Source of the DNA: a virus
Lineage: Duplodnaviria > Caudoviricetes
Reading direction: 5' to 3' (one strand)
DNA: 39,466 nucleotides
IMG/VR virus record: IMGVR_UViG_3300037608_000244
Span: 1 to 39,466 of that record
Below the pieces are notes generated by a model that saw only the letters and a list, made by a program, of their open reading frames with translations, ran no database searches and was not told the origin of the DNA. The position numbers and the translations under genes are program-made. Shown here piece after piece: positions 1-39,466 of this stretch (within the stretch, counting starts at the first letter, position 1; every line of letters starts with the position of its first letter).

Positions 1-963
1 TTGGCAAAATCCATCAATGATAAAAAAACTGTTGAACAAATCGAAACGGTCGACGACAGAAAATTTAATTTCTATCAGCCAAATAATGATCTGGTTTTAA
101 AGGCTGGTAAAATTATAGGGGTTGTTGGCTGTGCTGTTTATAATAGTCTCCTGTGCCACGCCGGAAATAAATCAAGAGATAGCTGGCCGTCGATTGAGAC
201 TATAGCCGAAGAGTGGAATTGTTCAAAACATCCGGTCATAAATGCGATAGCTCTATTAGAACAGTTGCATATGATTACCACTCAGCGTAAGACTGGGAAA
301 CCTAACAAATATCATCTAAATGACGTTTCTGAGTGGCGATTAGAGATCACTAATCCCATATTTGAAGGGTTAACCAGTGCACCAGATGCACCGGTCGAAG
401 GGTTAACCAGTGCACCAGATGCACCGGTCGAAGGGTTAACCAGTGCACCAGATGCACCGGTACCAGTGCACCAGATGCACTCGAACTATACGTATTTAAC
501 TATACTAAAAGAAACATACCTCGGCAGTGTACTTTTTGAAGAGATTATAAAAGCAAACCCATACAGCAAATTAAAAGCCCAAACACCAAAACAGAAAGAT
601 ACAACTATCACTCGTTGGGCTAAAGATATTGAGAAGCTACTCCGCATTGACAAACAGGATCCCTCAATTATTGAGGAAGTCATAAAGAAAGCAACACATG
701 ACGATGTATTCTGGGGCCGTAATATTCTGTCTGGAGATGCGCTGAGGAGAAATTGGGATAGACTTACACACCAATTTGTAACAAAAAAACCCGAAAATAC
801 CTTCACAGAAAAGGAAAAAAAGAAACCCGCATTTGTCATCGGCAAGGATGGTATTAAGCGAAATTTAGCAACGGGTGAACCTGTTAATATACCAAAATCT
901 GAAGTTGAATCACTGGAAGAGATTCAGGCAGCTATCCGGGAAGGCTTATATGCCCCCGCATAA
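1..963 (+). CDS. Phage replication initiator (N-terminal winged HTH, lambda O-like organisation)
   Basis: N-terminal motif VYNSLLCHA..SWPSIETIAEEWNCSK..VINAI..L typical of HTH_36 initiators; internal iterons; C-terminal D.FW..NILS...LR..WDRL motif typical of phage O-like proteins. TTG start at the window edge is uncertain. Confidence 0.85.
   Translation: MAKSINDKKTVEQIETVDDRKFNFYQPNNDLVLKAGKIIGVVGCAVYNSLLCHAGNKSRDSWPSIETIAEEWNCSKHPVINAIALLEQLHMITTQRKTGKPNKYHLNDVSEWRLEITNPIFEGLTSAPDAPVEGLTSAPDAPVEGLTSAPDAPVPVHQMHSNYTYLTILKETYLGSVLFEEIIKANPYSKLKAQTPKQKDTTITRWAKDIEKLLRIDKQDPSIIEEVIKKATHDDVFWGRNILSGDALRRNWDRLTHQFVTKKPENTFTEKEKKKPAFVIGKDGIKRNLATGEPVNIPKSEVESLEEIQAAIREGLYAPA
364..480. repeat. Iteron array / putative replication origin
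   Basis: 33-bp unit GAAGGGTTAACCAGTGCACCAGATGCACCGGT(C/A) x3 plus a fourth core. 19-bp core ACCAGTGCACCAGATGCAC at 373, 406, 439 and 462, with internal dyad GTGCA-N5-TGCAC, followed by an AT-rich tract. Confidence 0.85.
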
Positions 964-2386: not shown

Positions 2387-2953
2387 ATGTATAAAGAAGT
2401 AAATCTTAAAAATATCACCCCTAATCCACACAACCCCCGGACGTGTTTCGAGGGCCGCGCTTTCGACGAGCTGGTGGCATCCATCAAAAAACAGGGCGTT
2501 ATCGAGCCGGTTATAGTCCGGGCTCTCAACGGTTCCGGAAGCTTTGAGCTTATTGCCGGTGAGCGCCGTTTCCGGGCGTCGAAAGAAGCCGGCAAAGAGT
2601 CAATTCCTGCCCTGGTTAAGGATCTCACAGATGACCAGGCTTTTGATGTGATGACCATCGAGAACCTTCAGCGGGAAAATCTTACCGAATATGAAGAGGC
2701 CAAGGCATTTAAGCTTTATGTAGATCGCAAAGGCGCTGATAAGGCCGTTGCCGAACTTGCTGAGCGCACAGGTATCAACCACCGGTATATTCAGCGCCGC
2801 GTTGCTGTGCTCAGCCTCCCGGACTATATCCTTACCATCTGGCAGGAAAATAACCTCTTATACGGCTCCCGGAAGATGAAATCACAAAATTTTATGAAGA
2901 TTATCTTGACCCGAAGCAGGGTAATAATTGGAACCCCCGCCCTGTCACAGTAA
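2387..2953 (+). CDS. ParB/RepB/Spo0J-family protein, N-terminal part (frameshifted)
   Basis: NPHNPR, ELVASIKKQGVIEPVIVR, ELIAGERRFRA, IENLQRENL..EEA motifs plus HTH. Sequence stops looking ParB-like after LLYG. Confidence 0.85.
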   Translation: MYKEVNLKNITPNPHNPRTCFEGRAFDELVASIKKQGVIEPVIVRALNGSGSFELIAGERRFRASKEAGKESIPALVKDLTDDQAFDVMTIENLQRENLTEYEEAKAFKLYVDRKGADKAVAELAERTGINHRYIQRRVAVLSLPDYILTIWQENNLLYGSRKMKSQNFMKIILTRSRVIIGTPALSQ

Positions 2954-2955
2954 AG

Positions 2956-4080
2956 ATGCTCGAACAGGCTATTAATAACCGGTCCATACCCTTAAAGCAG
3001 GCAAAGTTTAATTTGGCAAAGGACGGCTGTAAAAATTGTCTTTCCAATTCATCCGCCCAGGCGACTATTTTCGGCGATGATCTCTCCGGAAGTAAATCAC
3101 GCTGTAACAATCCCGCCTGTTTCCGCGAGAAACAGCGGGCCTGGCTTACCGAACACTGGCCGGACGGTTATAATGATTTTGGAACAACAGGTTTTATTTT
3201 TGATGATGAGTTCAATCAATGTAAATTTAACGTAATCTATGAGCATCACATTGATTCAGCGAAAAAAAGAAATGCCGACATACAAAAATGTCTTACATGT
3301 CAGTCACATATCACCGTACTTGAGCTGACAGGCAAGGTAAGAATTGCCTGGGGAAAGATTTGCACGGGCGAAAAAGCCTGCTATGAAAAAATATACCACG
3401 GTGAATCAGAATTTGAAAACACCTCATTTAAAACTTCCGCAAACCACGGCCCGGAATTTCAGGACCGCTTTTACCGTGAAAGTATTCCGGAAAGATTTAT
3501 GCTGCTCAAATACGATGATGCCCGCGCACTGCGCATGACCCTTTTTGCTCTCCTCTATGGTGATTATAATGCCAAATGTCGCTTCGCTAAAGAAAACAAT
3601 CTTGAAGGCTATCAGGAAGACGTCACGCGCAAAATATGGATTGCCCTGGAGGCAATGCCCGTTCCTTTGCTCCATACCTGGATAAGGAACATAGTTTGTT
3701 TTCTGCTTATTGACAACCCGCTGATTGCCCAGGGACCTATCGCCGGAGGGCTCGAATACAAACCCCTCATAGCAAAGCACCTCGGGATACATATTGAAAC
3801 CGAATGGGTTATTACAGAGGAGTATCTTAAGAAAAAAAGAATTCCGGAATTAATTGAGCTGGGAAATTCCCTTGGTATTTTTACAGATGAGAAAGCAGTT
3901 GCCTTTCTTGCCAACACGATTAAGGAAAAGAAGTTTGAAAACTGCAAGAAAAAGGACCTGATCCGGGTTTTTATGGAATCCGAGGTTGACCTTACCGGCA
4001 GGATCCCGGAGGAGATATTACAGGGCCAAGTCGGCTGTGATGAGCCTCCTGAAAGTGATAAGACAGAGGAGGAAGAATAA
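2956..4080 (+). CDS. Cys-rich C-terminal part of the ParB-family protein
   Basis: Frame is open from 2854 (RLPEDEITKFY...), overlapping the ParB ORF in the -1 frame; carries CKNC, C..PAC and CLTC motifs. Confidence 0.65.
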   Translation: MLEQAINNRSIPLKQAKFNLAKDGCKNCLSNSSAQATIFGDDLSGSKSRCNNPACFREKQRAWLTEHWPDGYNDFGTTGFIFDDEFNQCKFNVIYEHHIDSAKKRNADIQKCLTCQSHITVLELTGKVRIAWGKICTGEKACYEKIYHGESEFENTSFKTSANHGPEFQDRFYRESIPERFMLLKYDDARALRMTLFALLYGDYNAKCRFAKENNLEGYQEDVTRKIWIALEAMPVPLLHTWIRNIVCFLLIDNPLIAQGPIAGGLEYKPLIAKHLGIHIETEWVITEEYLKKKRIPELIELGNSLGIFTDEKAVAFLANTIKEKKFENCKKKDLIRVFMESEVDLTGRIPEEILQGQVGCDEPPESDKTEEEE

Positions 4081-4082
4081 AT

Positions 4083-4625
4083 ATGTCAAATAAACTTGCC
4101 CGAAGATCATTCGGTGAATCCTATTTATGTGCTAAACCTTGGCCTGCAGACTGTTTTGTGCAATGTGGTAGTCACGGCATTGTTGTTGATAAAGGCTCTT
4201 TAGAAAAAATGATGGAATCAAGTAATCCCATTAAAGAACTTGCAGAAAATACTGCATACACAACGGCCTTTTTTGAAGCTTTTCCCAGAGATGCCACATG
4301 TAAAACTTTCATTCGCGGCGAGGGCAAGACAGTTGAAGAGGCCGAGGCAGCAGCGTATGAGAAATACGTAAAGTATAAAGCCTGTGATCATCCACAGTTT
4401 GAGCGCAGAGAATACCGTAACGGCGCGGGATTCTGTGTTAAATGCGGAATGTTTAAATACGCCTTTGAACCGCTTGAAATCTGTTGTATTTGCGGAAAAT
4501 ATACATATTATTCATCAGATATTGAGGGAAAGTGGTATTGTAAAGAATGCGTAACGCATATGCCGGAAGATAAAAAGCACAAATGGCAAAAAGATATAGA
4601 AAAACGGCATGAGGTATCAGCATAA
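4083..4625 (+). CDS. Cys-rich phage hypothetical protein
   Basis: FFEAFP..FIRGEG and several CxxC motifs; tightly packed between neighbouring genes. Confidence 0.7.
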   Translation: MSNKLARRSFGESYLCAKPWPADCFVQCGSHGIVVDKGSLEKMMESSNPIKELAENTAYTTAFFEAFPRDATCKTFIRGEGKTVEEAEAAAYEKYVKYKACDHPQFERREYRNGAGFCVKCGMFKYAFEPLEICCICGKYTYYSSDIEGKWYCKECVTHMPEDKKHKWQKDIEKRHEVSA

Positions 4626-6618
4626 TATGACTCAAGCCCTTCACACATCACATTTCACGAATAACGTTTCACGGGGTTTCCCGCCTCCTCTCTCTATCCG
4701 CTTCACCCCTGGAGAGCGCAGGGTGTTCGCTTCCCGTGAACGCGACCCCCGGACAGGCCTCCCCCTTACTGTCAGCCAATGGGCAGAGCGGTACCGGGTT
4801 GTCACGGGCGGACCTATGCCGGGACGGTGGCAAAATGCCAACGCTCCATATGCTGTTGAGCCTATGGACTGTTGGACCGTGCCGTCGATCAGGGAAATAT
4901 ATCTGTGTTTTGCACCTCAGGTTGTGAAGACTCAGATTGCTTTTAATTGCCTCGGGTATGCGGCCGATCAGGACCCCGGAAGCGCGATGTACGTCATGCC
5001 CGATGAAAAAACTACAAAGCGTATTGCACGGCGCCGTATCCTGCCCATGATAAAGGCCTCCCCGCGCCTCGCGTCGCTTCTTTCTCCTCGTTATGATGAT
5101 ACAACTACTCTTTCCATCCGTTTTATTAACGGTATGGATCTCATGATGGCGTGGGCAACTTCCGTAGCGGAGATATCCTCGGAGGATGTGCGGTATTTTA
5201 TCGGCGATGAAATTTCTAAGTGGCCGGGGTATTCGGGTACCGGAGAAAAAAGGGAGGCTCATCCCTGGTATCTCGGCAAGATCAGAACAAACACATACCC
5301 GCATACAAAGAAGATCCTCGCGCTGTCCTCTCCGGGTGCAGCTCCATGTCTTATTACGGAGTTAATGAAGTATGAGGCCGATGAGACGCGGCGCTATGAA
5401 GTGCCCTGTCCCATATGTGGACACTTTCAGATCATGAGTGACGAGAATATTGTCACGTTAAAAAATGAGCATAACCCTCTTGTCATTGTCCGGAACAAAC
5501 TCGGACGCTATTCCTGCGCGAAGTGCGGCATGTTTTGGGATGACTATATGCGCAACCAGGCTGTTAAACACGGCAGATGGGTACCCGGCCGGTTCGACGC
5601 AAACGGAGAATGGCAGCCCGCGGACCCAATCATTCGCCCGGTGTCCGTGGCGTTCCATCTTCCTGCCTGGTATTCGCTTTTTGAGTCCCTCTCAGAGGTT
5701 GCCGCGTCCCGCATACGCGGTGAAGACGATCCGAAGAAGCAAATGGTCTATGTGACGCAAAAAAGAGCAGAGGAATATAAAGAAGTCGTTGAGACAAAGA
5801 AAGAAGAGAACATTCTCGCGGAACACAGGGTTACCCTACCCACAGGCATTGTCCCGGCGGCGGCGCTTGCTCTCACTGCCGGGATTGACTCCCATACCTG
5901 GGGCTATCGTTTTACGATCTACGCCTGGATTGAGGATGTCCTTGGTTTTACTGCCCAGAAGATACAGCACGGCCACCTCGGTACCCTGGCTGACATCGAG
6001 GCCCTTGTCTATCATGCCCGTTTTCAGGTCGAGAACTCATCCGAGACAATGGGTATCTGGCGCGCTGCAATAGATACAGGTGGAAACAGGCCGGGCCCGA
6101 ATACCAACGACAATGAAAAAACCATGACGGATGAAATTTATGAATGGCTCCGCAAACAGCCCCGAGGAACTATTTTCGGCGTAAAAGGAGCGTCTCACGA
6201 CCAGCAAAGCCGTGTAAAACTCACGGTTATTGACAAATTCCCGCACAAAAATAAACCTATCCCCGGAGGCCTTGAGCTCCGCATACTCGACACAAATCAG
6301 TTTAAGGGACTCTTTCACTGGCGTTTGACCCGAGCTGCTGGCGATACCCAGCGCATTTTATTTGACGCCGGTACCGATAATGAGTTTGTCCGGGAACTCC
6401 TTGCCGAAGAATTACGGAAGAAACGAAACGGACAGACCGAATGGGTCCGGGTACGCACCGCAAACCATTATTTGGATTGTTCGGTCTATGCCATGGCCGC
6501 CGCCGATGCCGAATGGCAGCCGTCGCTGAAGCTGTTGTCAAAAAGGATAAAACAAATCCGGGAAGGGGCCCCGCAGGAAAAACAACACCGGCGTGTATTA
6601 AGCAGGGGCATAGAGTGA
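4609..6618 (+). CDS. Terminase large subunit, lambda gpA family
   Basis: LTVSQWAERYR, PGRW....PY, Walker A-like PQVVKT, Walker B FIGDE, VPCPICG zinc motif, LTAGID, AAIDTGG, NHYLDCSVYA. Start may instead be 4627. Confidence 0.95.
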   Translation: MRYQHNMTQALHTSHFTNNVSRGFPPPLSIRFTPGERRVFASRERDPRTGLPLTVSQWAERYRVVTGGPMPGRWQNANAPYAVEPMDCWTVPSIREIYLCFAPQVVKTQIAFNCLGYAADQDPGSAMYVMPDEKTTKRIARRRILPMIKASPRLASLLSPRYDDTTTLSIRFINGMDLMMAWATSVAEISSEDVRYFIGDEISKWPGYSGTGEKREAHPWYLGKIRTNTYPHTKKILALSSPGAAPCLITELMKYEADETRRYEVPCPICGHFQIMSDENIVTLKNEHNPLVIVRNKLGRYSCAKCGMFWDDYMRNQAVKHGRWVPGRFDANGEWQPADPIIRPVSVAFHLPAWYSLFESLSEVAASRIRGEDDPKKQMVYVTQKRAEEYKEVVETKKEENILAEHRVTLPTGIVPAAALALTAGIDSHTWGYRFTIYAWIEDVLGFTAQKIQHGHLGTLADIEALVYHARFQVENSSETMGIWRAAIDTGGNRPGPNTNDNEKTMTDEIYEWLRKQPRGTIFGVKGASHDQQSRVKLTVIDKFPHKNKPIPGGLELRILDTNQFKGLFHWRLTRAAGDTQRILFDAGTDNEFVRELLAEELRKKRNGQTEWVRVRTANHYLDCSVYAMAAADAEWQPSLKLLSKRIKQIREGAPQEKQHRRVLSRGIE

Positions 6619-6869
6619 TAAAATGCCCGGACCTGCCCGAAAAGACGCTATTAAGACCCGACGAAGTGGCGGAATTTTTTTCCGTATCGGCACAGACTAT
6701 ATATATGTGGTGCGACTCAGGCACTCTTGACGCTATCAAAGTAAACGGTACTACCAGAATATACCGGCAATCTGTTCTGAGGGTACTTCAAAAAGGAGAT
6801 CCTCTTACCGTTCAGCGCCAGGTGCAACCAGGCGAGAAAAAAAGAAGAGTACTGAGTAAGGGGATATGA
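6615..6869 (+). CDS. Excisionase/BldC-like (HTH_17, MerR-like) DNA-binding protein
   Basis: LLRPDEVAEFFSVSAQTIYMWCDSGTL.A.K..G..RI motif; GTG start overlaps the terL stop (GTGA). Confidence 0.85.
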   Translation: MIKCPDLPEKTLLRPDEVAEFFSVSAQTIYMWCDSGTLDAIKVNGTTRIYRQSVLRVLQKGDPLTVQRQVQPGEKKRRVLSKGI

Positions 6870-6897: not shown

Positions 6898-6925
6898 TTG
6901 ACACCGGTCTTTTTCTTGCTATACT
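6898..6925 (+). promoter_or_regulatory. Sigma70-type promoter for a small RNA
   Basis: TTGACA (6898-6903), 16 nt, TATACT (6920-6925) with an extended -10 TG at 6917-6918. No + strand ORF before the terminator. Confidence 0.8.
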
Positions 6926-6931
6926 ATCGTT

Positions 6932-7005
6932 AAGAGAATTAAAGTTTTGGATCGGGGTGTCGCCCGGTCGGTAGAAGCCTCTCATCACGAGAGGCTTTCT
7001 TCTTT
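6932..7005 (+). ncRNA. Putative DUF3800-associated structured small RNA (~75 nt)
   Basis: Lies between the promoter and the terminator; hairpin GATCGGG-gtgtcg-CCCGGTC (6950-6969) plus the terminator hairpin; convergent with the DUF3800 gene. Families of DUF3800-associated RNA motifs are known. Confidence 0.65.
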
Positions 7006-7007
7006 TT
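6975..7007 (+). terminator. Intrinsic terminator
   Basis: AAGCCTCTC-atcac-GAGAGGCTT 9-bp stem followed by TCTTCTTTTT. Confidence 0.8.
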
Positions 7008-7746
7008 AAGGAAACAGCTTTAATCCCCACCCTTTGTAATCCCCGTTTTTGTTGCAATATATTTTATTTTTTAATAGTTCAAAAGGAATATTAGGCTTAT
7101 TAGGATTTATTAAATGTCTTGCAAGCGGGTACGCGCACAAATCTGCTATTTGAAGGCCTATTAAATTATCTTTCTTACCAAAACATCCAAAACTAATTAT
7201 TCTTTTTTGTAGTCTTTCTCGACTTACATAAGATGTTCCTCTATCAGAAAGAGAATTATAATAGTTAAGAAGCATTTCATCGTCTTTTTTACCTCTTTTC
7301 TCTGCCTTTATTTCTATCTCGGCTTTTTTATCAAATATATCTAAACAAAAAATGAGCCTTTCAATTATAAAAGATAAGGAAAGGCTGTATGGGTCTTTAG
7401 CTCCTTTGCCATATTTTTCAATATGTTTTTCTTTATGTATTCCAGATCCAATGATAAAATAATTTGCGTCACTTATTATCTTGTTCAAATCTTCATAAAA
7501 TTGTTTTTTTATCTTTGAATCAAAGAGAATTTGAAAGGGACCTTCACATTTTCTTATATCGCGTGAATGTAAAATAATATTTTTGCTACCGAAATATTTT
7601 GTTTTAAACTCATCGACCATATTTTCTACTTTCATAAGATCATCCTCTCTAAAGAGACATCCGCATAAAAGAAAAATAGGAAAATTATAATCAATATAAC
7701 TCAACCCATGATCGCCTGTTTCATCAAGAAATAACTGGTATTTCAA
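7006..7746 (-). CDS. DUF3800 domain protein (predicted RNase H-like fold)
   Basis: N-terminal LFLDETGDH, ILHS.DIR, GLQIADL.AYP and C-terminal GLKLFP. AT-rich and antisense to the operon; AGGAGA RBS with TTG start. Confidence 0.85.
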   Translation of the reverse strand: MKYQLFLDETGDHGLSYIDYNFPIFLLCGCLFREDDLMKVENMVDEFKTKYFGSKNIILHSRDIRKCEGPFQILFDSKIKKQFYEDLNKIISDANYFIIGSGIHKEKHIEKYGKGAKDPYSLSLSFIIERLIFCLDIFDKKAEIEIKAEKRGKKDDEMLLNYYNSLSDRGTSYVSRERLQKRIISFGCFGKKDNLIGLQIADLCAYPLARHLINPNKPNIPFELLKNKIYCNKNGDYKGWGLKLFP

Positions 7747-7981: not shown

Positions 7982-8011
7982 TTCAAATGCTTCAAATGCT
8001 TCAAATGCTTC
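7982..8011. repeat. 9-bp tandem direct repeat (TTCAAATGC x3 + TTC)
   Basis: Seen directly; lies immediately upstream of a candidate -35 for the head operon. Confidence 0.9.
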
Positions 8012-8079: not shown

Positions 8080-8295
8080 ATGGCCGGTAGAACACTTGCA
8101 GACGCCCAGGCGGACTATACTGCCACACATGCGGCATATTTGAAAGCCCTTGACGCGGAAGCCTACGGCATTGGAGATAAGAACCTCAGACGTCCACGCT
8201 CTCAGGAGCTTTACGATCAAATGATGAGGCTTGACGCTGAAATAAAGCGGCTTTCCCGCGGAGGAATAAGAATGCGCGGAGGTACCCCAACTTGA
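8080..8295 (+). CDS. Head-tail joining/completion protein, gpW-like
   Basis: 71 aa helix-hairpin-helix pattern (AY.IGD..L.R....EL) immediately before a lambda-type portal; GGAG RBS ahead of ATG 8080. Confidence 0.75.
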   Translation: MAGRTLADAQADYTATHAAYLKALDAEAYGIGDKNLRRPRSQELYDQMMRLDAEIKRLSRGGIRMRGGTPT

Positions 8296-9932
8296 AATAC
8301 AAAACCCAAGCCGGGCACAAGAATATAGAATTCGAAGATAATTTCATTGACCGGGCTATCAATTTTCTTGACCCGGTAAGAGGGGCCCGCAGATTACAGA
8401 GCCGTCTTGCTCTTGCAGTATCAGGAATGTATTTCGGTGCTTCAACATCCCGCAGGGCCCTTTCCGAGTGGACTCCTAAGGACTCCGACCCCAATGCAAC
8501 CCTCCAGTTTGATCTTGATATGATGAGGCAGCGCAGCCGGGACATGATCCGGAACGTTCCTCTGGCAACGGGCGCGATCAATACCGTATGCACAAATGTT
8601 GTCGGGAACGGCTTGCAGTTGCAGGCGCGCTTGGACAGGAGTATCCTGAATCTGACTGATGAGCAGGCCGACGCCTGGGAATCAAAAACAGAATCGGAAT
8701 GGTCTTTATTCTGGGACTGCACTGAGGTAGACAGCGCCCGAACGTTAAACGGCGCCGGGATAACGGAACTTGCGTTCCGGCAGGCTCTTGAAAACGGCGA
8801 ATCTTTTATCAACCTTCCCCGTATTAAACGTGCCGGGGCCTACGACCTTAAACTGCAACTCATAGAGGCTGACAGGATATCCAACAAGGATAATATTGCC
8901 GACACGGAAACCCTGTTTATGGGCATAGAGAAAGACTCATACGGCGCGCCTGTCGCGTATCATGTCTGCAATCAATTTCAGTATTCTACCCTTCCGCAGA
9001 ATGTTATATCCTGGCAAATTATACAGGCATACGGCAGTAAAACAGGCCTGAAAAACATAATTCATTTGTTTAAACCTATCAGACCGGGCCAGACGAGAGG
9101 TATCCCGTATCTGACACCTGTCATTGAGTCCTTAAAACAGCTTGGCAGATATACCGAGTCTGAATTAATGGCCGCTGTCATATCATCGATGTTCACGGTT
9201 TTTATCAAAACAGAGGCTGGTGAATCTGATTTTGATATCGGTGAACTCGGTAGAGAAACCGGGGCAAAAGCAAGCGATACAGATGTTAAACTCGCTCCGG
9301 GCGCAATTATAGACCTTTTAAAAGGTGAGGATATTGTAACAGCAAACCCGAACCGCCCGAACACGGCTTTTGATCCTTTTGTCCAGGCCATATTAAGGCA
9401 GATCGGCGTCGCCCTGGAACTGCCCTTCGAGGTTTTGATTAAACATTTCACCGCATCATATTCAGCGGCCCGCAGCGCTCTCCTTGAAGCGTGGAAATTT
9501 TTCAATAACCGCCGCCAATGGCTTGCTCAGAATTTCTGTCAGCAGGTTTATGAAGTTTGGCTGTATGAAGCTATCGCCTCCGGAAGGATCGCGGCTCCGG
9601 GATATTTTAACAACCCGCTTATTAAGAAAGCATATTCCACCGCAGAATGGGTTGGACCGTCGCCCGGACAGATAGATCCGGTGAAGGAAGTCACCGCCGC
9701 AGAGAAGCGCCTCCAACTCTTACTGACAACCAGAGCACAAGAAAGCGCAGCAATGGGCGGAGATTTTGACGCAAATATAAAACAGATCAAAAAAGAACGG
9801 GCTCAAATTATTGACGCCGGCCTTAATCCGGATAGAAATTACAAAAATCAACAGCCCGCATTTACACAACCGCAGCAGGAAAATGACGATGAAAACGACA
9901 ATCAGGGAGGGAACGACCTTGAAAATACTTGA
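8292..9932 (+). CDS. Portal protein, lambda family
   Basis: RQRSRDMIRNVPLA.GA, LQLIEADR, RPGQTRGIP, SYSAARSALLE, IDPVKE motifs. Confidence 0.95.
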   Translation: MKYKTQAGHKNIEFEDNFIDRAINFLDPVRGARRLQSRLALAVSGMYFGASTSRRALSEWTPKDSDPNATLQFDLDMMRQRSRDMIRNVPLATGAINTVCTNVVGNGLQLQARLDRSILNLTDEQADAWESKTESEWSLFWDCTEVDSARTLNGAGITELAFRQALENGESFINLPRIKRAGAYDLKLQLIEADRISNKDNIADTETLFMGIEKDSYGAPVAYHVCNQFQYSTLPQNVISWQIIQAYGSKTGLKNIIHLFKPIRPGQTRGIPYLTPVIESLKQLGRYTESELMAAVISSMFTVFIKTEAGESDFDIGELGRETGAKASDTDVKLAPGAIIDLLKGEDIVTANPNRPNTAFDPFVQAILRQIGVALELPFEVLIKHFTASYSAARSALLEAWKFFNNRRQWLAQNFCQQVYEVWLYEAIASGRIAAPGYFNNPLIKKAYSTAEWVGPSPGQIDPVKEVTAAEKRLQLLLTTRAQESAAMGGDFDANIKQIKKERAQIIDAGLNPDRNYKNQQPAFTQPQQENDDENDNQGGNDLENT

Positions 9933-11355: not shown

Positions 11356-11943
11356 ATGTGCGCACTCGCAGCAGATCTTCCCAGAACGTTTGAAATAGGA
11401 CCCATAAACACTTTGCCCGTACTGGGCACTTCGACTATTTACAGAGGCAGCGCTGTTGGCGATAGCTCCGGTTATTCAAGACCCCTTGTTGCCGGCGACT
11501 CATTCCGCGGTTTCGCGGACGCGAAGGTCGATAACCTTACCGGCGCGTCAGGCGCGAAAAATGTTGATGTCATAACCGAAGGCTATGCCCAGGTGACATT
11601 AGCAAGCGTTGCCATTACGGATGTAGGCAAACCGGTTTATATGAGCGATGATGAGACGTTCACGCTCACTCAGGGCAGCAACAGCCTCGTAGGGTCCGTT
11701 TATCGCTATGTTGCCGCAAACACCTGTGTCATTAAATTCGGCGACAATAAAACGCTCCAGGCTTCAGCAGTATCCACGACAGCAGTCACAGCCGTCGCAA
11801 CTACCGCCGCGTCCCTGGCAGGCTATGGATTCACGACACAGGCGCAGGCAGACGCGATAGTCGCTTCGCTGAATGCTGTCATCACAAAACAGGCGTCAAT
11901 TGTAACCGCCCTGAATGCAATGCTTGGCGGGTCAAAGGGTTAA
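11356..11943 (+). CDS. Head decoration/cement protein with a Ser/Thr/Ala-rich C-terminal extension
   Basis: IYRGSAVG...F.GFA...DN..GA.G...V.V...DVGKPVY.SDD.T motif typical of decoration proteins next to gpT-type capsids. Confidence 0.75.
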   Translation: MCALAADLPRTFEIGPINTLPVLGTSTIYRGSAVGDSSGYSRPLVAGDSFRGFADAKVDNLTGASGAKNVDVITEGYAQVTLASVAITDVGKPVYMSDDETFTLTQGSNSLVGSVYRYVAANTCVIKFGDNKTLQASAVSTTAVTAVATTAASLAGYGFTTQAQADAIVASLNAVITKQASIVTALNAMLGGSKG

Positions 11944-11944
11944 T

Positions 11945-13483
11945 ATGAATATCGCGGTAATATATACACTTCTCTGTGTTGCTGTGCTGCCTTTCTGGAT
12001 AGCGCAGCAGCACTTAGGAGGCCGCTCAATCCCCTTTATCCTGGCAACGTGCGGGTATGTCCTGTATTCACTGGCATCCGGGATCAATATCCCCATGGAC
12101 AATACAACAATGATTGCCGGATCTATTGCTGTCTGGCTGCTTATGTCTCTTACCTGGACGGACACAAAGCGAAGTGTCTTTGAGCTTTTTAATCTGCTTG
12201 CGTATCTTGTTTTATTCACAGTTGCCCGGACAATCCCGCTTGTTATAACTGTATCTGCTGTTTTCACAATCGGAGTGAGCTTTGCAACAATGGAAGCTGT
12301 CCGGATTGTCAAAAGGCGCAAATTCCCGAATGCAGGGGAGACATTTACTTTCGGCAACGGCAACCATACCGGGGCATTTATGATTGTCAGCCTCTTTACG
12401 GGAATATGGCTCGTAATCAATTTATCAGTATGGTTTACACCTTTTGTCCTGCTCATAGCCGCAGTGCTCATCATATCCCGCTGCAAAGGCGCGATTGCGG
12501 GATGCGTTTCTGCAGGCGCGGTCACACTATTTATTACAGAATTCTGGCAGCCGGCAGCTTTAATCAGTTTGGTGGCAGCGGCTTTTGTGCTCAGACGTTT
12601 CAATGCAATCCCTAACGCGAGAGCTTCAATAGGCGGGCGGATATGGTTATATCTGGCATCCCTTGAAATGATTGTTAAAAAACCCTTTACCGGGTACGGG
12701 CTGAATTCATATCAAAAAGAACTGCCCGACATAATCGCGCGGATTACAAAGAGCAAACTTCATGAAATTGCCGGAGATAGATTAAAAGCACAAATGAACA
12801 CCCGGTCTCACCGGGTACACAATGACCATCTTGAAATCATGTCGGAAATCGGTATTCCTGGATACCTTCTCTTTGTATACCTCTTTTTAAGCGTCACATA
12901 CGATCCTATTATACTTGGCTTACTTATTGCTTTCCTGATTCACGCGCTTTTCTTTTTCCCTTTTCGCGAAGTTCATACGGCAGTGCCCTTCTGGGTAATC
13001 ATGGGGTCAATGGCAGGCGGGTCAATCAGCGCGGTGACAATGCCCTTGCTGATAAAAATCCTCATCGGCTGTATTGTCGCAGCCGTGATAATTCAAACTT
13101 TGCACAGATTTCTTGGCCAGTGGTATTCGGAAATGGCGAAAAACAAACCGGGGATAACCGAAGAGCAGAAACTTGAATATATTGATATTGCGGTATCCCA
13201 TGACCCCTATGATACGGGATATCTCTCGGATGCAGCCTATTATTATTCAAAAGCAAATCCTGTAAAGAGCTTCTTTTATGCCGCGCGCTGTCTTTTGCAC
13301 TATGACGGTACCCGCATGAAACAGGGTGTTTATGATCTCTTCGCCCGCACATTAATAGCGGCAAAAGAAGTTAATGTCTGCCACTTTGTTGAAGATAAAG
13401 CTCTATGGATAGACCCGATATTTCAACCGGCAATTACCATAAAGAGTTATTTATACAGCCGGTATGCAGGCGGTAAAAAATGA
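11945..13483 (+). CDS. O-antigen ligase family (Wzy_C; WaaL/PglL-like) polytopic membrane protein
   Basis: About 12 hydrophobic segments; TFGNGNH, SRCKGA, GR..LY...L.MI.KKPFTGYG..SY and HNDHLEIMSEIGIPG motifs; helical TPR-like C-terminus. Confidence 0.88.
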   Translation: MNIAVIYTLLCVAVLPFWIAQQHLGGRSIPFILATCGYVLYSLASGINIPMDNTTMIAGSIAVWLLMSLTWTDTKRSVFELFNLLAYLVLFTVARTIPLVITVSAVFTIGVSFATMEAVRIVKRRKFPNAGETFTFGNGNHTGAFMIVSLFTGIWLVINLSVWFTPFVLLIAAVLIISRCKGAIAGCVSAGAVTLFITEFWQPAALISLVAAAFVLRRFNAIPNARASIGGRIWLYLASLEMIVKKPFTGYGLNSYQKELPDIIARITKSKLHEIAGDRLKAQMNTRSHRVHNDHLEIMSEIGIPGYLLFVYLFLSVTYDPIILGLLIAFLIHALFFFPFREVHTAVPFWVIMGSMAGGSISAVTMPLLIKILIGCIVAAVIIQTLHRFLGQWYSEMAKNKPGITEEQKLEYIDIAVSHDPYDTGYLSDAAYYYSKANPVKSFFYAARCLLHYDGTRMKQGVYDLFARTLIAAKEVNVCHFVEDKALWIDPIFQPAITIKSYLYSRYAGGKK

Positions 13484-14854: not shown

Positions 14855-15144
14855 GCCATAATCCTGTAACAGAAGTGGCGCCATCGGAATTTGCTCACAG
14901 CAATAAAACCATAGGTACCGTAGCTGATAAGCTCGTTGATGAGAATTCTTATCGGCGCTCTATCCTTGTACAGAATCTTTCAGCAACGAATGATCTATAT
15001 ATCGGCAATGCAAGCGTAACAACAGCGAATACTGTTAAAATCGCCCCCGGTGAAGGCCTGACGCTTTACACCCGTAGTGCCATCTATGCTGTCGCCTCTG
15101 CTGACACATGCGATGTGAGATATTTGGAGGAATATTGTGGCTGA
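14851..15144 (+). CDS. Small beta-rich putative virion protein
   Basis: RRSILVQN....LYIG...V......I.PGE pattern; GGGGAG RBS; ATGA overlap. Confidence 0.65.
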   Translation: MSHNPVTEVAPSEFAHSNKTIGTVADKLVDENSYRRSILVQNLSATNDLYIGNASVTTANTVKIAPGEGLTLYTRSAIYAVASADTCDVRYLEEYCG

Positions 15145-16822
15145 TTTACGAAGAACCTATTTATTAACACTGCTTGCCACCCTCCCTGCCCACTACGAAC
15201 GTGATATAAAATGGGCATTAAAAACCCCCTACACCACAGCGGCAAACAGGTACACCTTACTGACACCCAACCGCCTCACCGTCAACATCAACGACAGCGG
15301 TCATGCCCTTAACGCTCAATCGCAAATCGACCTGTCTGTAGCTGCAAACTGGGACACCATTGCCGGAACTGACTATACCGTTGCTGCTAATCGCGCTGGT
15401 AAGGATTTTTATATTTATGCCTGTCAGCAATCAGGAGGCGTACCTAAATTTGTTATTTCCGCCAACTCTACAGTTCCCACGGGCTACACCTCTTCTAACT
15501 CCCGTAAAATAGGCGGGTTTCACTGCCTTTGTGCATCGTTTACCCTGACAGCTTGGGCTGCGGATACGGTTATAGCCCTTTATGAGACAAGAAAACCCAC
15601 GGTTAAAGACAACTACATTTATGTCTGCACCGCACGTGCAGGTGATTTTAAAACCCATGCAGCCACGGAACCCAATTGGGCATCTATAGCCAATGGTGCA
15701 ACTATCGTTGACGATCAGATTACCTGGATGAAATTACCGAATAAGTTAGAAGGATTTCTGGCAGGGGATATACTTCCTGACTCTATTTGGGACTTAAAAC
15801 ACAAACCCCGCGAGGCCTCCCCGGAAGGGATGGTCTATTCCGATCAGATAGGCAAATGGGTAGATATCTATCTGGCCTCCGGAACAGACACATCAACCGC
15901 ATCCGTTAACGGCGGAACCATCAGCGACAGTCGTACATGGCTTAATTTTGTAGACGATGGTGCAGCAGTTAAAAAACGCCTCCTCCGGGACATGGAGTTT
16001 CAGGCTATAGCGGCAGGTAGCAATGAACAGACCAATATCACCGGCTCTGCCGATCCTGTGACTACCGGCGGGCACGTAGACACATTGTCACGCCGCATGA
16101 TATCGAACATCGGCTGCGAGGATTGTTGTGGTGCTATGTACCAATGGCTGGATGAACAGTCGTACCAGTGCAATCCTGATGGTACAATCACGGCAGCATC
16201 AAAAACAGGTACTATCACCCACGTTGCAGCACCCGGTGGTAATCCGATATATATCAAATTCTTTAATGACGGGACTCCTTATCTTTGCAGCAATATGGCA
16301 AGTGCGGCTGTTAACAAGATAATCGCTCTCGGTACGGATTATAAAGTACAGATTACTCATGATGCCGATCCGGCAGCCGGTGGTCTGCAAGTCTATTTTG
16401 ATGAGGACGCGACACAACCTTCCCGGCTCCTGTGCAATAACACGGTAATCGGCAAGGATGTCTATGCGGCCACAAACAACCCAGCCTACATGTTGCAGAT
16501 AAAGCATAGCGCCACTGCCTCATCTCTGGGAGTGGCTGTAAATTATGATGACGGAGCAGACAACAGACTTGAATTTACGTCCCCCACATCAGCCAACGGC
16601 ACCCTTGACCTCGCCTTAAACAGTCAGGCATTTTCCTTCAAAACTATAGGCGGCAGCAAGGGGCAACTATACAGCCAGGGCACCTACGGAGATGTAAAGC
16701 TGAACGCTGGCGGTTATTGGTATACGGGGTCGGCTGCGGGCTCTCGGTTTCGGTATGCGTATAACTATCGCTGGTATACGTATGCGTATCTCGGCGGGCG
16801 GTTCGCGGCGGAGCCGTTATGA
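15137..16822 (+). CDS. Mtd-like receptor-binding / DGR target protein (C-type lectin/FGE-like fold)
   Basis: SRKIGGFHC, ILP.SIWDL.H.P, PEGMVY, WVDIYLAS, RRMISNIGCEDCCG..YQW motifs and a C-terminal GG.W..G..AGSR.R......W......GGR variable region. Confidence 0.85.
   Translation: MADLRRTYLLTLLATLPAHYERDIKWALKTPYTTAANRYTLLTPNRLTVNINDSGHALNAQSQIDLSVAANWDTIAGTDYTVAANRAGKDFYIYACQQSGGVPKFVISANSTVPTGYTSSNSRKIGGFHCLCASFTLTAWAADTVIALYETRKPTVKDNYIYVCTARAGDFKTHAATEPNWASIANGATIVDDQITWMKLPNKLEGFLAGDILPDSIWDLKHKPREASPEGMVYSDQIGKWVDIYLASGTDTSTASVNGGTISDSRTWLNFVDDGAAVKKRLLRDMEFQAIAAGSNEQTNITGSADPVTTGGHVDTLSRRMISNIGCEDCCGAMYQWLDEQSYQCNPDGTITAASKTGTITHVAAPGGNPIYIKFFNDGTPYLCSNMASAAVNKIIALGTDYKVQITHDADPAAGGLQVYFDEDATQPSRLLCNNTVIGKDVYAATNNPAYMLQIKHSATASSLGVAVNYDDGADNRLEFTSPTSANGTLDLALNSQAFSFKTIGGSKGQLYSQGTYGDVKLNAGGYWYTGSAAGSRFRYAYNYRWYTYAYLGGRFAAEPL
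16699..16822 (+). other. DGR variable region (VR) with GC-rich IMH-like end
   Basis: All 8 Tyr codons are TAT, with TTT/GCT/AAC at other spaced positions, as expected from AAY template codons; GC-rich run 16792-16816. Confidence 0.75.
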
Positions 16823-33786: not shown

Positions 33787-34031
33787 TTGAGGTCACTCAC
33801 GATGTAGCTTTCCATTGCGATGGATGCCGTAAGCGTGTTTATGATGATAGTGCTTATTGTCCTGACTGCTATGAGAAAACCAAAGCGGAAAATGAGCATC
33901 TTTTAAAAGAGAATGCACAATTAAAAAGTCTGCTCCAAGTCTATAAAATAGAATACACAGAACCTACAGCAAGAGCGCCTATTCTATACCCTGATTTTGC
34001 TAAAAAACATGGCATTGCTTGTGCTGCCTGA
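33783..34031 (+). CDS. Zinc-finger + coiled-coil hypothetical protein
   Basis: CDGC...CPDC followed by a heptad repeat. Confidence 0.65.
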   Translation: MIEVTHDVAFHCDGCRKRVYDDSAYCPDCYEKTKAENEHLLKENAQLKSLLQVYKIEYTEPTARAPILYPDFAKKHGIACAA

Positions 34032-34045
34032 AAGGAGATATACAT

Positions 34046-35284
34046 ATGGAATTTACAATTAATGCTGAATATTTGAAAGGGAAAGTTGACCTGCTCAAAG
34101 GGATTACAAAGGTCAAGTCTTTGATGCCGGTTACCCGCAATGTCCTCATGACTCTGGCCGGTCAGGGCGGGACGATCCGGGCGACGGATCTGGAAGTGAG
34201 CGCCATAACGGAACTGCGCTCGGAATATGATGGTCCGGAACCGAAACAGATCATGGTTAATGGGGGCGTCCTTTCGGGTATTCTTGAGGGATTTGCCAAA
34301 AAAGATGTAAACATTACGCAACCCGAAGAAGATAAAGGCACCCTGGTAATCCGATACAACAAAACCGAGATCGGTCTCGCCATGCAGAATCCGGAAGACT
34401 TCCCGGAAGTGAAAGCCCTTGACGGTGACGTTGCTTTATCCGTGCCGGGTGTGGACATCATGCGAGGTATAAACAAGGTCCTGTACGCGGTAAGTGCTGA
34501 CGAAAGCAGGTACACGCTCACCGGCATCCTGATCGAGATCAAAGGCGGGCAGTTCCGGATGTGCGCGACTGACGGTTTCCGGGTGGCGCTCTATAAGAAG
34601 GATATACGGGACGGCGCAACTCCCACGCCTCAGATACTTGTGCCCGGCAGGAATATAAAGATGCTCAAAGAGACAATCGACGACAAGGACGATGTTGACG
34701 TTGTCATTGACGCGAAACATGCCCAGTTCATGACGCCGGTTGTGACGCTTATATTCCGGACCATCGAAGGGGCATTCCCTGATTATGAGAGTCTCATACC
34801 CTCAAACCATGATCATATGATCTTTATCCGGCGTGTCGCGCTTCTTGATTCCCTGAAGCATGTCGCCCCGCTTACAAAGAAAGACGACAACGTGGTTTTC
34901 CTGAACCGGGATTTCTCCGGCGGGCTCACAATATCCGTTGAGACCTCAGCGGGCTATGCCGTGGACACAATAGATTGTGAGTACAAGAGTCAGGCCCCCT
35001 TCCAGCAGGCATTCAACCTGAAATTCATCCTTGACGCGATAGAGCATATGGATGCTGACCAGATCAGTATTACATACCCTGAGGGCTTCGGCGCGGCAGT
35101 ATTTGAGGAACCGGGTTACACCTGCCTTGTTATGCCGATCAGGGGCATGGAAACACCGATCATTGCAAGGAAAACCAGAATACCGGATACATCTTTGGCA
35201 AGTCCGGGTGAGGATCGCGCAGAAAGCACGGAAAAGAAACTGAAATTTCACAAAACAAACAAAGGGAATAAAGCCGATGAATAA
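34046..35284 (+). CDS. dnaN: DNA polymerase III beta sliding clamp (phage-encoded)
   Basis: ATDLE, DFPE, ESRY.L.GI, ATDGFR, IEG.FPDY, AFN.KFILDA, LVMPIR motifs; AAGGAG RBS before ATG 34046. Confidence 0.93.
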   Translation: MEFTINAEYLKGKVDLLKGITKVKSLMPVTRNVLMTLAGQGGTIRATDLEVSAITELRSEYDGPEPKQIMVNGGVLSGILEGFAKKDVNITQPEEDKGTLVIRYNKTEIGLAMQNPEDFPEVKALDGDVALSVPGVDIMRGINKVLYAVSADESRYTLTGILIEIKGGQFRMCATDGFRVALYKKDIRDGATPTPQILVPGRNIKMLKETIDDKDDVDVVIDAKHAQFMTPVVTLIFRTIEGAFPDYESLIPSNHDHMIFIRRVALLDSLKHVAPLTKKDDNVVFLNRDFSGGLTISVETSAGYAVDTIDCEYKSQAPFQQAFNLKFILDAIEHMDADQISITYPEGFGAAVFEEPGYTCLVMPIRGMETPIIARKTRIPDTSLASPGEDRAESTEKKLKFHKTNKGNKADE

Positions 35285-38058: not shown

Positions 38059-38199
38059 ATGAACGTTCTCCACAATAATAAACCTGTCTATTTTGTATGG
38101 TGGCCATTTTATGCATTCCTATTATTTGCGTTGATTATCCTTGCCATGTTTACAAGGGCTATCGAGGCAGTATTAACGTTTATGGAAATAGATGAATAA
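38059..38199 (+). CDS. 46-aa small membrane protein, not in the supplied track
   Basis: MNVLHNNKPVYFVWWPFYAFLLFALIILAMFTRAIEAVLTFMEIDE; GGGGGA upstream. Confidence 0.4.
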   Translation: MNVLHNNKPVYFVWWPFYAFLLFALIILAMFTRAIEAVLTFMEIDE

Positions 38200-38218
38200 A
38201 ACAGTCCGGAAGGCAAGC

Positions 38219-38247
38219 TTGACACATAAAAAACCCTCACGTATGAT
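38219..38247 (+). promoter_or_regulatory. Sigma70-type promoter for the integrase
   Basis: TTGACA (38219-38224), 17 nt, TATGAT (38242-38247); AGGAGG RBS before ATG 38282. Confidence 0.75.
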
Positions 38248-38281
38248 ATCTCAGGATGATTTAAAGAGAGGAGGTATCATT

Positions 38282-39466
38282 ATGACAGGGGTAATTTTGT
38301 GTAATAAGTGCCGCAAAAAGATGGATGGGGTTTGTGAGTGCGGTAATTACAAGTGCCTTATCTGTGTTTATTGGGGCGGGAAACACTACGAATACCGCCG
38401 GGATGAACAGGGGTATGTATTTACCTATGACAAGGCAAAAGACAGGCTTATAGAGATATCAAATGCAATCAAAAAAGGTATTTTTAAACCGGTTGACTTT
38501 ACTGATGCACGAATTGCTGAAAGAAAGTTTGAAAACCAGATTGATAAGTGGCTTGATGGCAAGATAAATCAAGAGAAAATGGGTGAACTTAGCCCTGGAA
38601 CAACTCGAAATTATGCATCTTATACGCGGCACCGTTTTACTTTTTTTGAAGGCATTGATGTTAAAGATATAACCCGAGAGCACCTTGAGAATTTTAAAGA
38701 TACACTTGGTGGAATCAGCATTAAGACCCGTAAAAATATTCTCAATGCTTTACGGAATTTCTTTTTCTGGCTCAAAGAACGGGAAACGATTAATGTTATG
38801 CCCCGTTTTCCTATGGTAAAAGGTGATGACAGCAAGACCGTCCTGACAATCGATTATGAATTGCAGGCCGAAGTTTTACAGCATATCCCGGAGATGCACA
38901 GAGACCCCATAGAATTTATGATGGAGACCGGTTTACGGCCCGGTGAAGTCTGCGCGTTGCTTGTGGAGCATGTCGATCTGAGAAACGGCACTGCCCGGAT
39001 TGAGCGGACCTATGTGTCCGGAAACAAAATTCGTGAGACTTCAAAACAAAAGCGCAAACGCATAATTCCCTTGTCTGACCGGGCTCTTGAAATTGCCGGG
39101 CGGCACATCGATTCTAAGCTGCCGAAACAATTTTTATTTATTAACGCAAAAACCGGCAAAGGATATTTTCCGAATGCGCTCTGGTTTCAATGGTCGCAAC
39201 ATTCAGGCTTGCCAGGCGTAAGCCTCTACGGCGCAACACGCCACAGTTTCGCGACCCAACTCATACAGCATAATGATGTAACAGTGGTAAAGGAATTAAT
39301 GGGTCATTCTGACATCCGGACTACCCAGAAATATGTTCATATGAGAATGACAAAATTGTCTGATGTTGTAAATAACCGGCATATTATAAAACTGGCAAGC
39401 CGGGTAGAAAACAGAAGCGAAACAGAAGCGGCTTTAAGCGGTAGTACATCTAATAATATTAAGTAG
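38282..39466 (+). CDS. int: Tyrosine integrase with N-terminal Cys cluster
   Basis: TGLRPGE, YGATRHSFAT, MGHSDIRTTQKY catalytic motifs; CNKC..CECG N-terminus. Confidence 0.93.
   Translation: MTGVILCNKCRKKMDGVCECGNYKCLICVYWGGKHYEYRRDEQGYVFTYDKAKDRLIEISNAIKKGIFKPVDFTDARIAERKFENQIDKWLDGKINQEKMGELSPGTTRNYASYTRHRFTFFEGIDVKDITREHLENFKDTLGGISIKTRKNILNALRNFFFWLKERETINVMPRFPMVKGDDSKTVLTIDYELQAEVLQHIPEMHRDPIEFMMETGLRPGEVCALLVEHVDLRNGTARIERTYVSGNKIRETSKQKRKRIIPLSDRALEIAGRHIDSKLPKQFLFINAKTGKGYFPNALWFQWSQHSGLPGVSLYGATRHSFATQLIQHNDVTVVKELMGHSDIRTTQKYVHMRMTKLSDVVNNRHIIKLASRVENRSETEAALSGSTSNNIK
39409..39430. repeat. 11-bp tandem repeat, possible arm-type integrase sites
   Basis: AAACAGAAGCG x2 in the 3' end of int. 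Confidence 0.55.

What the first reader, a model, noticed from the sequence alone, without database searches (positions are those of the whole stretch)
6589..6869. HTH protein ends in a copy of the terminase C-terminal motif (RRVLSxGI)
Seen: terL ends RRVLSRGIE* (6589-6618) and the next gene ends RRVLSKGI* (6843-6869) after a flexible linker. Codons differ (CGG CGT GTA TTA AGC AGG GGC ATA vs AGA AGA GTA CTG AGT AAG GGG ATA), pointing to selection at the protein level. Known: the extreme C-terminus of lambda gpA mediates prohead binding. Inference: this Xis/BldC-like DNA binder mimics the terminase tail and may dock on portal/proheads, either tethering DNA for packaging or being titrated by proheads as assembly feedback on transcription. 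A shared degron is an alternative.
Basis: partly seen in the sequence, partly recalled or inferred. Interest (0 to 1): 0.72.

Follow-up and report, generated by a model that had tools for sequence, protein, structure and literature searches.

The report
Phage regulator copies terminase's portal-docking tail
In a group of uncultured phages, a small DNA-binding protein ends in a copy of the DNA-packaging motor's last residues, and both copies switch type together with the capsid's portal, so the protein likely docks on empty heads and would let head supply feed back on head-gene expression.

Summary
Confirmed and extended. The gpA terminase (4609-6618) ends RRVLSRGIE. The overlapping 84-aa BldC/Xis-like HTH gene (6615-6869) ends RRVLSKGI after a variable linker. 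Of 14 distinct complete TerL-HTH pairs, 10 HTHs have a tail and all 10 match their own TerL's type: 8 RRV.S.GI and 2 of an unrelated G[WF]V..W type. Four have no tail. Synonymous codons match no more than chance (21 of 51; 19.2 expected). TerL tail type is scattered on the TerL-core tree but follows portal clades. Two phages with 97.6% identical TerL cores differ in both tails and in portal. New: a 9-bp direct-repeat array (7982-8011) sits just before the head operon, and similar arrays occur in 6 of 8 tailed loci tested, the BldC binding layout. Best model (0.5): the HTH regulates the head-operon promoter, probably as an activator, and empty portals capture it through the copied tail. Main rival: a DNA-to-prohead tether. 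Not found in ten literature searches or in four look-ups of this scan's earlier findings.

The parts
4609..6618 (+). Large terminase, lambda gpA family
   Evidence: PF05876 + PF20454
6589..6612 (+). TerL C-terminal peptide RRVLSRGI, inferred portal-docking motif; its Arg-Gly codons (AGGGG, 6604-6608) also look like the ribosome-binding site of the HTH gene
   Evidence: tail type follows portal clade
6615..6869 (+). 84-aa BldC/Xis-like winged-HTH protein overlapping the terL stop (GTGA): core about residues 6-60, variable linker, tail
   Evidence: PF12728; best PDB matches 6AMK/6AMA = BldC
6843..6866 (+). HTH C-terminal copy RRVLSKGI
6974..6998 (+). Terminator-like hairpin after the HTH gene, separating it from the head operon
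   Evidence: consensus scan only
7006..7746 (-). DUF3800 gene between the HTH and the repeat array; this slot holds other genes or none in relatives
7982..8011 (+). 3.3 perfect copies of TTCAAATGC (9-bp period) before the head operon; inferred HTH binding site
8080..8295 (+). gpW-like head-tail adaptor, first gene of the head operon
   Evidence: phrog_118
8292..9932 (+). Lambda-family portal, inferred common partner of both tails
   Evidence: PF05136
1514..2374 (+). Small terminase, a separate gene; the HTH is not the TerS
   Evidence: phrog_57

Best explanation
The small gene after terL encodes a BldC/Xis-like DNA-binding protein that ends in a copy of the terminase's last residues; the copy likely docks on the portal as the terminase tail is inferred to do, and the protein would thereby be captured by empty proheads while it likely regulates the head-gene promoter. 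Shown: the two tails match in type in every tailed pair, the type follows the portal clade, the fold is BldC-like, and 9-11 bp direct repeats lie just upstream of the head operon. Inferred steps: (1) the HTH is made by translational coupling to terL; (2) it polymerises head-to-tail on the repeats and regulates, more likely activates (about 60:40), the gpW-portal-protease-capsid promoter; (3) free portal sites on unfilled proheads bind its tail and draw it off the DNA, slowing head synthesis when heads are in excess; (4) the sites disappear when terminase docks or gpW caps the filled head, which releases the regulator. The result would be a homeostat that matches head production to packaging.
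For: Pairs: 8 R/R, 2 W/W, 0 mismatched, 4 tail-less, of 14 complete distinct pairs; one more HTH is cut by a contig end. Fisher 8,0/0,2 p=0.022, pairs not independent. Within the R class each HTH tail resembles its own TerL tail more than other TerL tails (permutation p=0.011); synonymous identity is 21 of 51 against 19.2 expected. On a 49-row HTH-core tree, two starred clades each hold both R and W tails and at least 3 changes are forced. TerL R tails need 11 changes for 14 rows on the TerL-core tree (shuffled 12.8; 61 of 500 as low) but 2 for 13 rows on the portal tree (shuffled 10.0; 0 of 500), and W tails form one starred portal clade. R tail versus window-type portal: 13/0/1/16; of 7 independent pairs 6 go the same way and 0 the opposite (p=0.031). 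L071 (W/W) and L074 (R/R): TerL cores 97.6% identical, HTH cores 73.6%, portals 24.7%. In lambda, loss of the last 5 gpA residues blocks prohead binding (PMC4856287 passages) and a portal mutation suppresses a gpA binding defect (PMC2366019 passage). BldC binds 9-bp direct repeats head-to-tail (PMC5859096). Arrays at p<0.05 in 6 of 8 tailed loci. Arg at the position matching BldC Arg30 (matched by eye) goes with GACA arrays in 4 of 6 loci against 0 of 6 (p=0.06, post hoc).
Against: No binding or expression data. The tail is missing in 4 of 14 pairs, two of which (L116, L131) have an R-type TerL and a window-type portal. Arrays also occur with tail-less HTHs (2 of 4) and with other small post-terL proteins (7 of 10), so they support DNA binding but not a role of the tail in transcription. 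Two of 8 tailed loci (L124, L070) show no significant array. TerL tail, HTH, gpW and portal are physically linked, so part of the co-segregation is linkage, and gpW or the protease cannot be fully excluded as partner (S49 tree, AU p=0.057 for one R clade). The W class has genomic context in only two related loci. Activator versus repressor is not resolved: the promoter scans are weak, and the related phage protein D29 Gp36 is a repressor (PMC12266134 abstract). Tail labels of L116, L081 and L213 were set by eye.
Confidence: 0.5

Rival explanations
1. Packaging tether (gpFI-like role): the HTH filament on DNA shows 3-4 tails that grip the portal ring and bring phage DNA and proheads together before terminase takes over.
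For: Needs the same portal-docking inference. Multivalent display follows from BldC-type polymerisation. Lambda gpFI bridges DNA-terminase and prohead. No gpFI family appeared among the 36 window proteins scanned.
Against: The only perfect array lies at the head-operon promoter region, about 6.5 kb downstream of the terS start. The packaging start site was not located. A tail copy would compete with terminase for the same sites. Arrays persist where the HTH has no tail.
Confidence: 0.2
2. Portal guard or timer: free HTH occupies portal sites to block premature terminase or gpW docking, independently of its DNA role.
For: Same tail-portal covariation. Lambda gpW's C-arm binds the portal by beta-sheet augmentation (PMC10721106 figure legend). 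gpW tails in W-type loci end in KRRILTRL / KRKVLMKL, which resemble the R tail.
Against: Does not explain why the peptide is fused to a DNA-binding protein. Weak GTG/TTG starts coupled to terL in several loci suggest few copies.
Confidence: 0.1
3. Shared tag for another partner: a degron for a host or phage protease, or a site for gpW, the protease or a host factor.
For: The basic-then-hydrophobic end recalls the MuA-type ClpX tag (recalled, no call). 9 of the 10 R-tail loci in which the next gene was seen have an S49 protease. One S49 clade for R loci is not rejected (p=0.057).
Against: 0-24 residues follow the motif and the last residue takes 12 values, including D and E. S49 occurs with 4 non-R tails, and one R-tail locus has a ClpP-type protease. 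A host partner would not track portal clade or switch to a Trp motif.
Confidence: 0.1
4. By-product: occasional local duplication of the terL 3' end onto the HTH gene, carried along by linkage, with no function.
For: The tail is absent in 4 of 14 pairs. In L074 the two tails share visible DNA likeness (4 of 7 codons), so copying may be how tails arise.
Against: No overall excess of synonymous identity. The motif is kept over spacers of 19-32 residues while linker columns average 0.28 identity (that alignment was chosen for having tails). It persists across HTH cores under 50% identical, in two unrelated motif types.
Confidence: 0.07
5. Programmed frameshift giving a TerL-HTH fusion that needs the docking tail at its new end.
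For: The HTH frame is open 235 nt upstream of the terL stop in the window and is the -1 frame in 14 of 15 loci.
Against: The frame is closed within 4-7 nt of the terL stop in L027, L074, L118 and L131, and L027 is in the +1 frame. Each HTH has its own start codon at the junction.
Confidence: 0.02

Closest known systems
BldC family of MerR-like/Xis-like wHTH regulators (BldC 6AMA/6AMK; mycobacteriophage Pukovnik Xis 4J2N; D29 Gp36)
   Same: Fold and sequence; small size without a MerR coiled coil; 9-bp direct-repeat array at a promoter region.
   Different: Carries a linker plus a terminase-type tail, lies directly after terL, and the tail switches with portal type. The abstract and passages read mention no such tail.
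Lambda gpA C-terminal prohead-binding domain
   Same: gpA-family terminase whose extreme C-terminus follows the portal rather than the enzyme core.
   Different: Here a second, non-motor protein carries the same peptide. I did not compare these tails with lambda's own tail sequence.
Lambda gpFI packaging chaperone
   Same: A protein with a DNA-binding side and a prohead-binding side (PMC4856287, PMC13595911 passages).
   Different: gpFI binds the gpE lattice and DNA non-specifically; this protein has a sequence-specific regulator fold and a portal-type peptide.
T4 gp55/gp33 clamp-binding tails shared with DNA polymerase; P22 scaffolding-protein autoregulation (both recalled, no call)
   Same: A transcription factor borrowing an enzyme's C-terminal docking peptide; head-gene output tied to titration by assembling proheads.
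   Different: T4 couples transcription to replication through the clamp; P22 acts on translation through the scaffold itself. Neither uses a terminase-portal motif.

Membership tests
BldC/Xis-like wHTH regulators (HTH_17) | Stand-alone MerR-type winged HTH without coiled-coil or effector domain | tested here: met
   PF12728 over cut-off; model and Foldseek top hits BldC and Pukovnik Xis; profile search
BldC/Xis-like wHTH regulators (HTH_17) | 9-11 bp direct-repeat site in a promoter region | tested here: met
   7982-8011; 6 of 8 tailed loci; occupancy itself untested
BldC/Xis-like wHTH regulators (HTH_17) | Head-to-tail oligomerisation on DNA and effect on transcription | not testable with these tools
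   needs EMSA, structure and reporter assays
Excisionase (recombination directionality factor) | Encoded beside integrase/att and acting there | tested here: not met
   The integrase is at 38192-39466; all 15 TerL-linked homologues abut terL. An extra role at att is not excluded.
Small terminase | Gene before terL, oligomerisation core, TerL-binding end | tested here: not met
   Separate TerS at 1514-2374; hhalign probability 0.2%; one weak TerS-family hit for the L070 homologue, E 0.0065
gpA-type TerL with C-terminal prohead-binding peptide | gpA ATPase and nuclease domains | tested here: met
gpA-type TerL with C-terminal prohead-binding peptide | Tail specificity follows the portal, not the enzyme core | tested here: met
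   (genomic covariation; linkage contributes)
gpA-type TerL with C-terminal prohead-binding peptide | Direct tail-portal contact | not testable with these tools
gpFI-type packaging chaperone | gpFI sequence or fold | tested here: not met
   only HTH families and wHTH folds lead the matches
C-terminal protease degron | Motif flush with a conserved free C-terminus | tested here: not met
   0-24 trailing residues, 12 different last residues in 28 proteins; degron rules recalled

The most novel reading that the evidence does not exclude
A phage assembly checkpoint built on motif mimicry: a head-operon transcription activator carries the terminase's portal-docking peptide, so empty proheads titrate it and throttle their own synthesis. 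The peptide has been exchanged repeatedly as portal modules were swapped, which also gives a readable tail-to-portal recognition code for gpA terminases.
Probability: 0.4. Interest if true: 0.86.

Novelty: new variant of a known kind. Interest (0 to 1): 0.72.

Why it matters
If true, it links the state of capsid assembly directly to transcription of head genes through a short borrowed docking peptide, a link I found no paper for. Apart from the regulator, the data give a sequence-level rule for which terminase tail goes with which lambda-family portal, and natural swap pairs (L071/L074; L017/L018) that make the long-known but structurally unresolved gpA-tail/portal contact testable with short peptides.

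Tried and rejected

Two degenerate DNA pattern scans that required a tail gave no new pairs: 4 of 10 and 4 of 19 matches were loci already held, and the rest had no HTH or TerL.

GenBank phages hold no close HTH homologue (1 weak hit), and TerL matches there are all under 60%.

Genome samples: 30 gpA matches in 22 of 401 genomes, none followed by this HTH subfamily. 11 matches in 10 of 96 genomes of the same order gave one tail-less pair; one search repeated the same 96 genomes. The HTH profile matched 2 of 401 genomes at E<=1e-15, with no TerL pair among them.

Other small proteins after terL do not copy the tail: among 69 TerL ends the six best tail matches (scores 26-36) are all this subfamily and no other protein exceeds 17. 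Those other proteins look Xis-like by eye only (0 of 6 PHROG hits; hhalign 2%).

Rejected readings: recent DNA duplication; frameshift fusion; TerL-core or TerS partner; ribosome-binding-site constraint on the HTH tail (the head operon starts 79-1210 nt after the HTH stop in tailed loci); a decoy for a host sensor (not tested directly; the tail follows portal clade). The ESM Atlas gave only generic HTH_17 clusters.

Full report
Observation. The window is a provirus record with a lambda-like head module: TerS 1514-2374, gpA TerL 4609-6618, an 84-aa HTH_17 gene 6615-6869, a DUF3800 gene on the minus strand, a gpW-like adaptor 8080-8295, a lambda-family portal 8292-9932, an S49 protease and a gpT-like capsid protein. 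TerL ends RRVLSRGIE and the HTH ends RRVLSKGI at the stated coordinates. Among 1231 unrelated ORF ends none matched more than 4 of 8 residues.

The HTH tail is conserved. It is present in 9 of 13 first homologues. Among 255 proteins from three searches, 28 carry R[RK][VIMT]x[SND]xG[IVLF] after a 19-32 residue spacer, and 8 carry a different end, G[WF]VxxW or close to it. The remainder, including the chromosomal clusters L031-L040 that have no terL nearby, have neither. The W ending suggested a test: does the HTH tail follow its own terminase?

Gene pairs. Loci came from scans whose peptide patterns lay wholly or mostly in the HTH core, from a TerL scan and from genome searches. After collapsing duplicates, 15 TerL-HTH pairs remain, one with a cut HTH. 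Eight are R/R (window, L026, L027, L042, L074, L113, L118, L124), two are W/W (L070, L071), four HTHs are tail-less (L003, L116, L131, L217), and none is mismatched. All 24 tail-ending HTH ORFs flagged in the 193 loci lie directly after a terL. Fine detail also matches, for example GRRVLNSGV/GRRVLNKGV in L027 and RRVRSKGL/RRIRSKGI in L042; permutation within the R class gives p=0.011. Synonymous codon identity is at chance, 21 of 51 against 19.2 expected, so recent copying does not maintain the match, although L074 hints that copying may create it. On a 49-row HTH-core tree (61 columns, many forks open, some rows are the same protein twice) two starred clades hold both R and W tails. Circumstantially, four further R-tail HTHs share longest-contig lengths with window-type portals (5679, 6316, 7664, 21701).

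The partner. TerL tail type is no better than shuffled on the TerL-core tree (60 rows: R 11 changes for 14 rows, W 5 for 6) but follows the portal tree (30 rows: R 2 changes for 13 rows, 0 of 500 shuffles as low; W one starred clade of 5). The 2x2 table of R tail against window-type portal is 13/0/1/16, and 6 of 7 independent pairs go the same way, none the opposite. L071 and L074 have 97.6% identical TerL cores yet differ in both tails and have 24.7% identical portals; L017 and L018 (99.7%) likewise differ in TerL tail and portal; the window and L026 share the R tail with 26.9% identical TerL cores and 55.7% identical portals. This excludes the TerL core as the selecting partner and fits lambda genetics, where the last five gpA residues are needed for prohead binding and a portal mutation suppresses a gpA binding defect (PMC4856287 and PMC2366019, passages). 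Protease type fits less well: S49 occurs with four non-R tails and one R locus has a ClpP-type enzyme, but one S49 clade for R loci is not rejected. Caveats: these genes are linked; three labels (L116, L081, L213) were set by eye; trees were quick or FastTree; loci without a portal in range were left out of the portal tests.

The DNA side. The HTH's best solved relatives are BldC (6AMK, 6AMA) and Pukovnik Xis. BldC binds 9-bp direct repeats head-to-tail (PMC5859096, passages and section 10). The window has 3.3 perfect copies of TTCAAATGC at 7982-8011, ending about 70 nt before gpW; these are the only exact matches to the repeat in the window. Arrays of 9-11 bp period upstream of the first head gene score p<0.05 against shuffles in 6 of 8 tailed loci, 2 of 4 tail-less loci, 7 of 10 loci with other small post-terL proteins and 0 of 2 without one; gene starts were picked by hand and four windows were widened from 150 to 260 nt after inspection. 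L042 and L113 were left out because no head-operon start was identified in them. The recognition-helix residue matching BldC Arg30 (by eye) may set the repeat sequence (4 of 6 against 0 of 6, p=0.06, post hoc). So the slot 'terL - small DNA-binding protein - repeats - head operon' looks general in these phages, and the tail is an add-on in one subfamily.

Mechanism. The simplest join of the two halves is a head-operon regulator that portals can capture. A terminator-like hairpin and an opposing gene separate the HTH from the head operon in the window, and the head-promoter consensus matches are poor, which leans towards activation; D29 Gp36, a similar protein, represses (PMC12266134, abstract). 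With activation, empty proheads would damp their own synthesis; with repression the loop would be a positive switch. My odds: portal docking by the HTH tail about 0.75-0.8 in all; feedback on transcription 0.5, tether 0.2, guard 0.1; another partner 0.1; no function 0.07; frameshift 0.02.

Comparison and novelty. The protein belongs to the BldC/Xis-like family by fold and site layout; it fails the tests run for excisionase, TerS, gpFI and a C-terminal degron. Ten full-text searches listed no paper on a regulator carrying a terminase tail; two searches returned nothing. The library lacks most subscription papers, and no supplements were opened. Also seen: PMC10721106 passages (gpW C-arm augments a portal beta-sheet), PMC13595911 passages (gpFI), PMC7617512 passages (terminase contacts the portal clip). 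The T4 gp55/gp33, P22 scaffold and MuA-tag analogies are recalled. This scan's earlier findings hold no match by sequence, place or words; one search listed three notes on other kinds of mimicry.

Verdict. A real, selected and previously unnoted feature: new variant of a known kind, interest 0.72.

Noticed in passing
window 6898-7007 (+): Near-consensus promoter (TTGACA-16-TATACT, 6898-6925), a weak sub-threshold match to the DUF3800-I RNA (6911-7007, E 0.92) and a terminator-like hairpin, facing the 3' end of the DUF3800 gene.
   Followed up: partly
L015, L016, L018, L025, L017, L021, L096 and others, directly after terL: Most gpA terL genes in these loci are followed by a 60-100 aa protein that looks Xis-like by eye but had no PHROG match in the six tested, many with 9-11 bp repeat arrays before the head operon: probably a wider, unannotated class of head-operon regulators.
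   Followed up: partly
TerL ends across L007-L221: Further recurring TerL tail types (RPDxSRIRERLxxRxxR, RPxW, TRSxSRW, GGKGGSWL); the few with a full portal in range group by portal clade, suggesting a tail-to-portal code.
   Followed up: partly
L070:4367-4918, L071:2687-3239: The long (183 aa) gpW-like adaptors of W-type loci end in KRKVLMKL / KRRILTRL, which resembles the R-type terminase tail.
   Followed up: no
L074, L118, L070, L071, L124 head-operon starts: Candidate -10 hexamers lie 7-10 nt before the start codon, suggesting leaderless head-operon mRNAs.
   Followed up: no
window 2387-4625: A ParB-like gene apparently split in two ORFs (2387-2953, 2956-4080) and a further ORF sit between terS and terL.
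   Followed up: no
window 364-461: Three perfect 33-bp repeats inside the HTH_36 replication-initiator-like gene, a likely origin.
   Followed up: no
window 11915-13483, 15137-16822, 34019-35284: An O-antigen-ligase-like gene inside the head module, an Mtd-domain protein, and a full-length sliding-clamp gene.
   Followed up: no
L031, L033-L040, L045-L051: Deltaproteobacterial chromosomes carry clusters of two or three tail-less HTH paralogues of the same family, with no terminase nearby.
   Followed up: no
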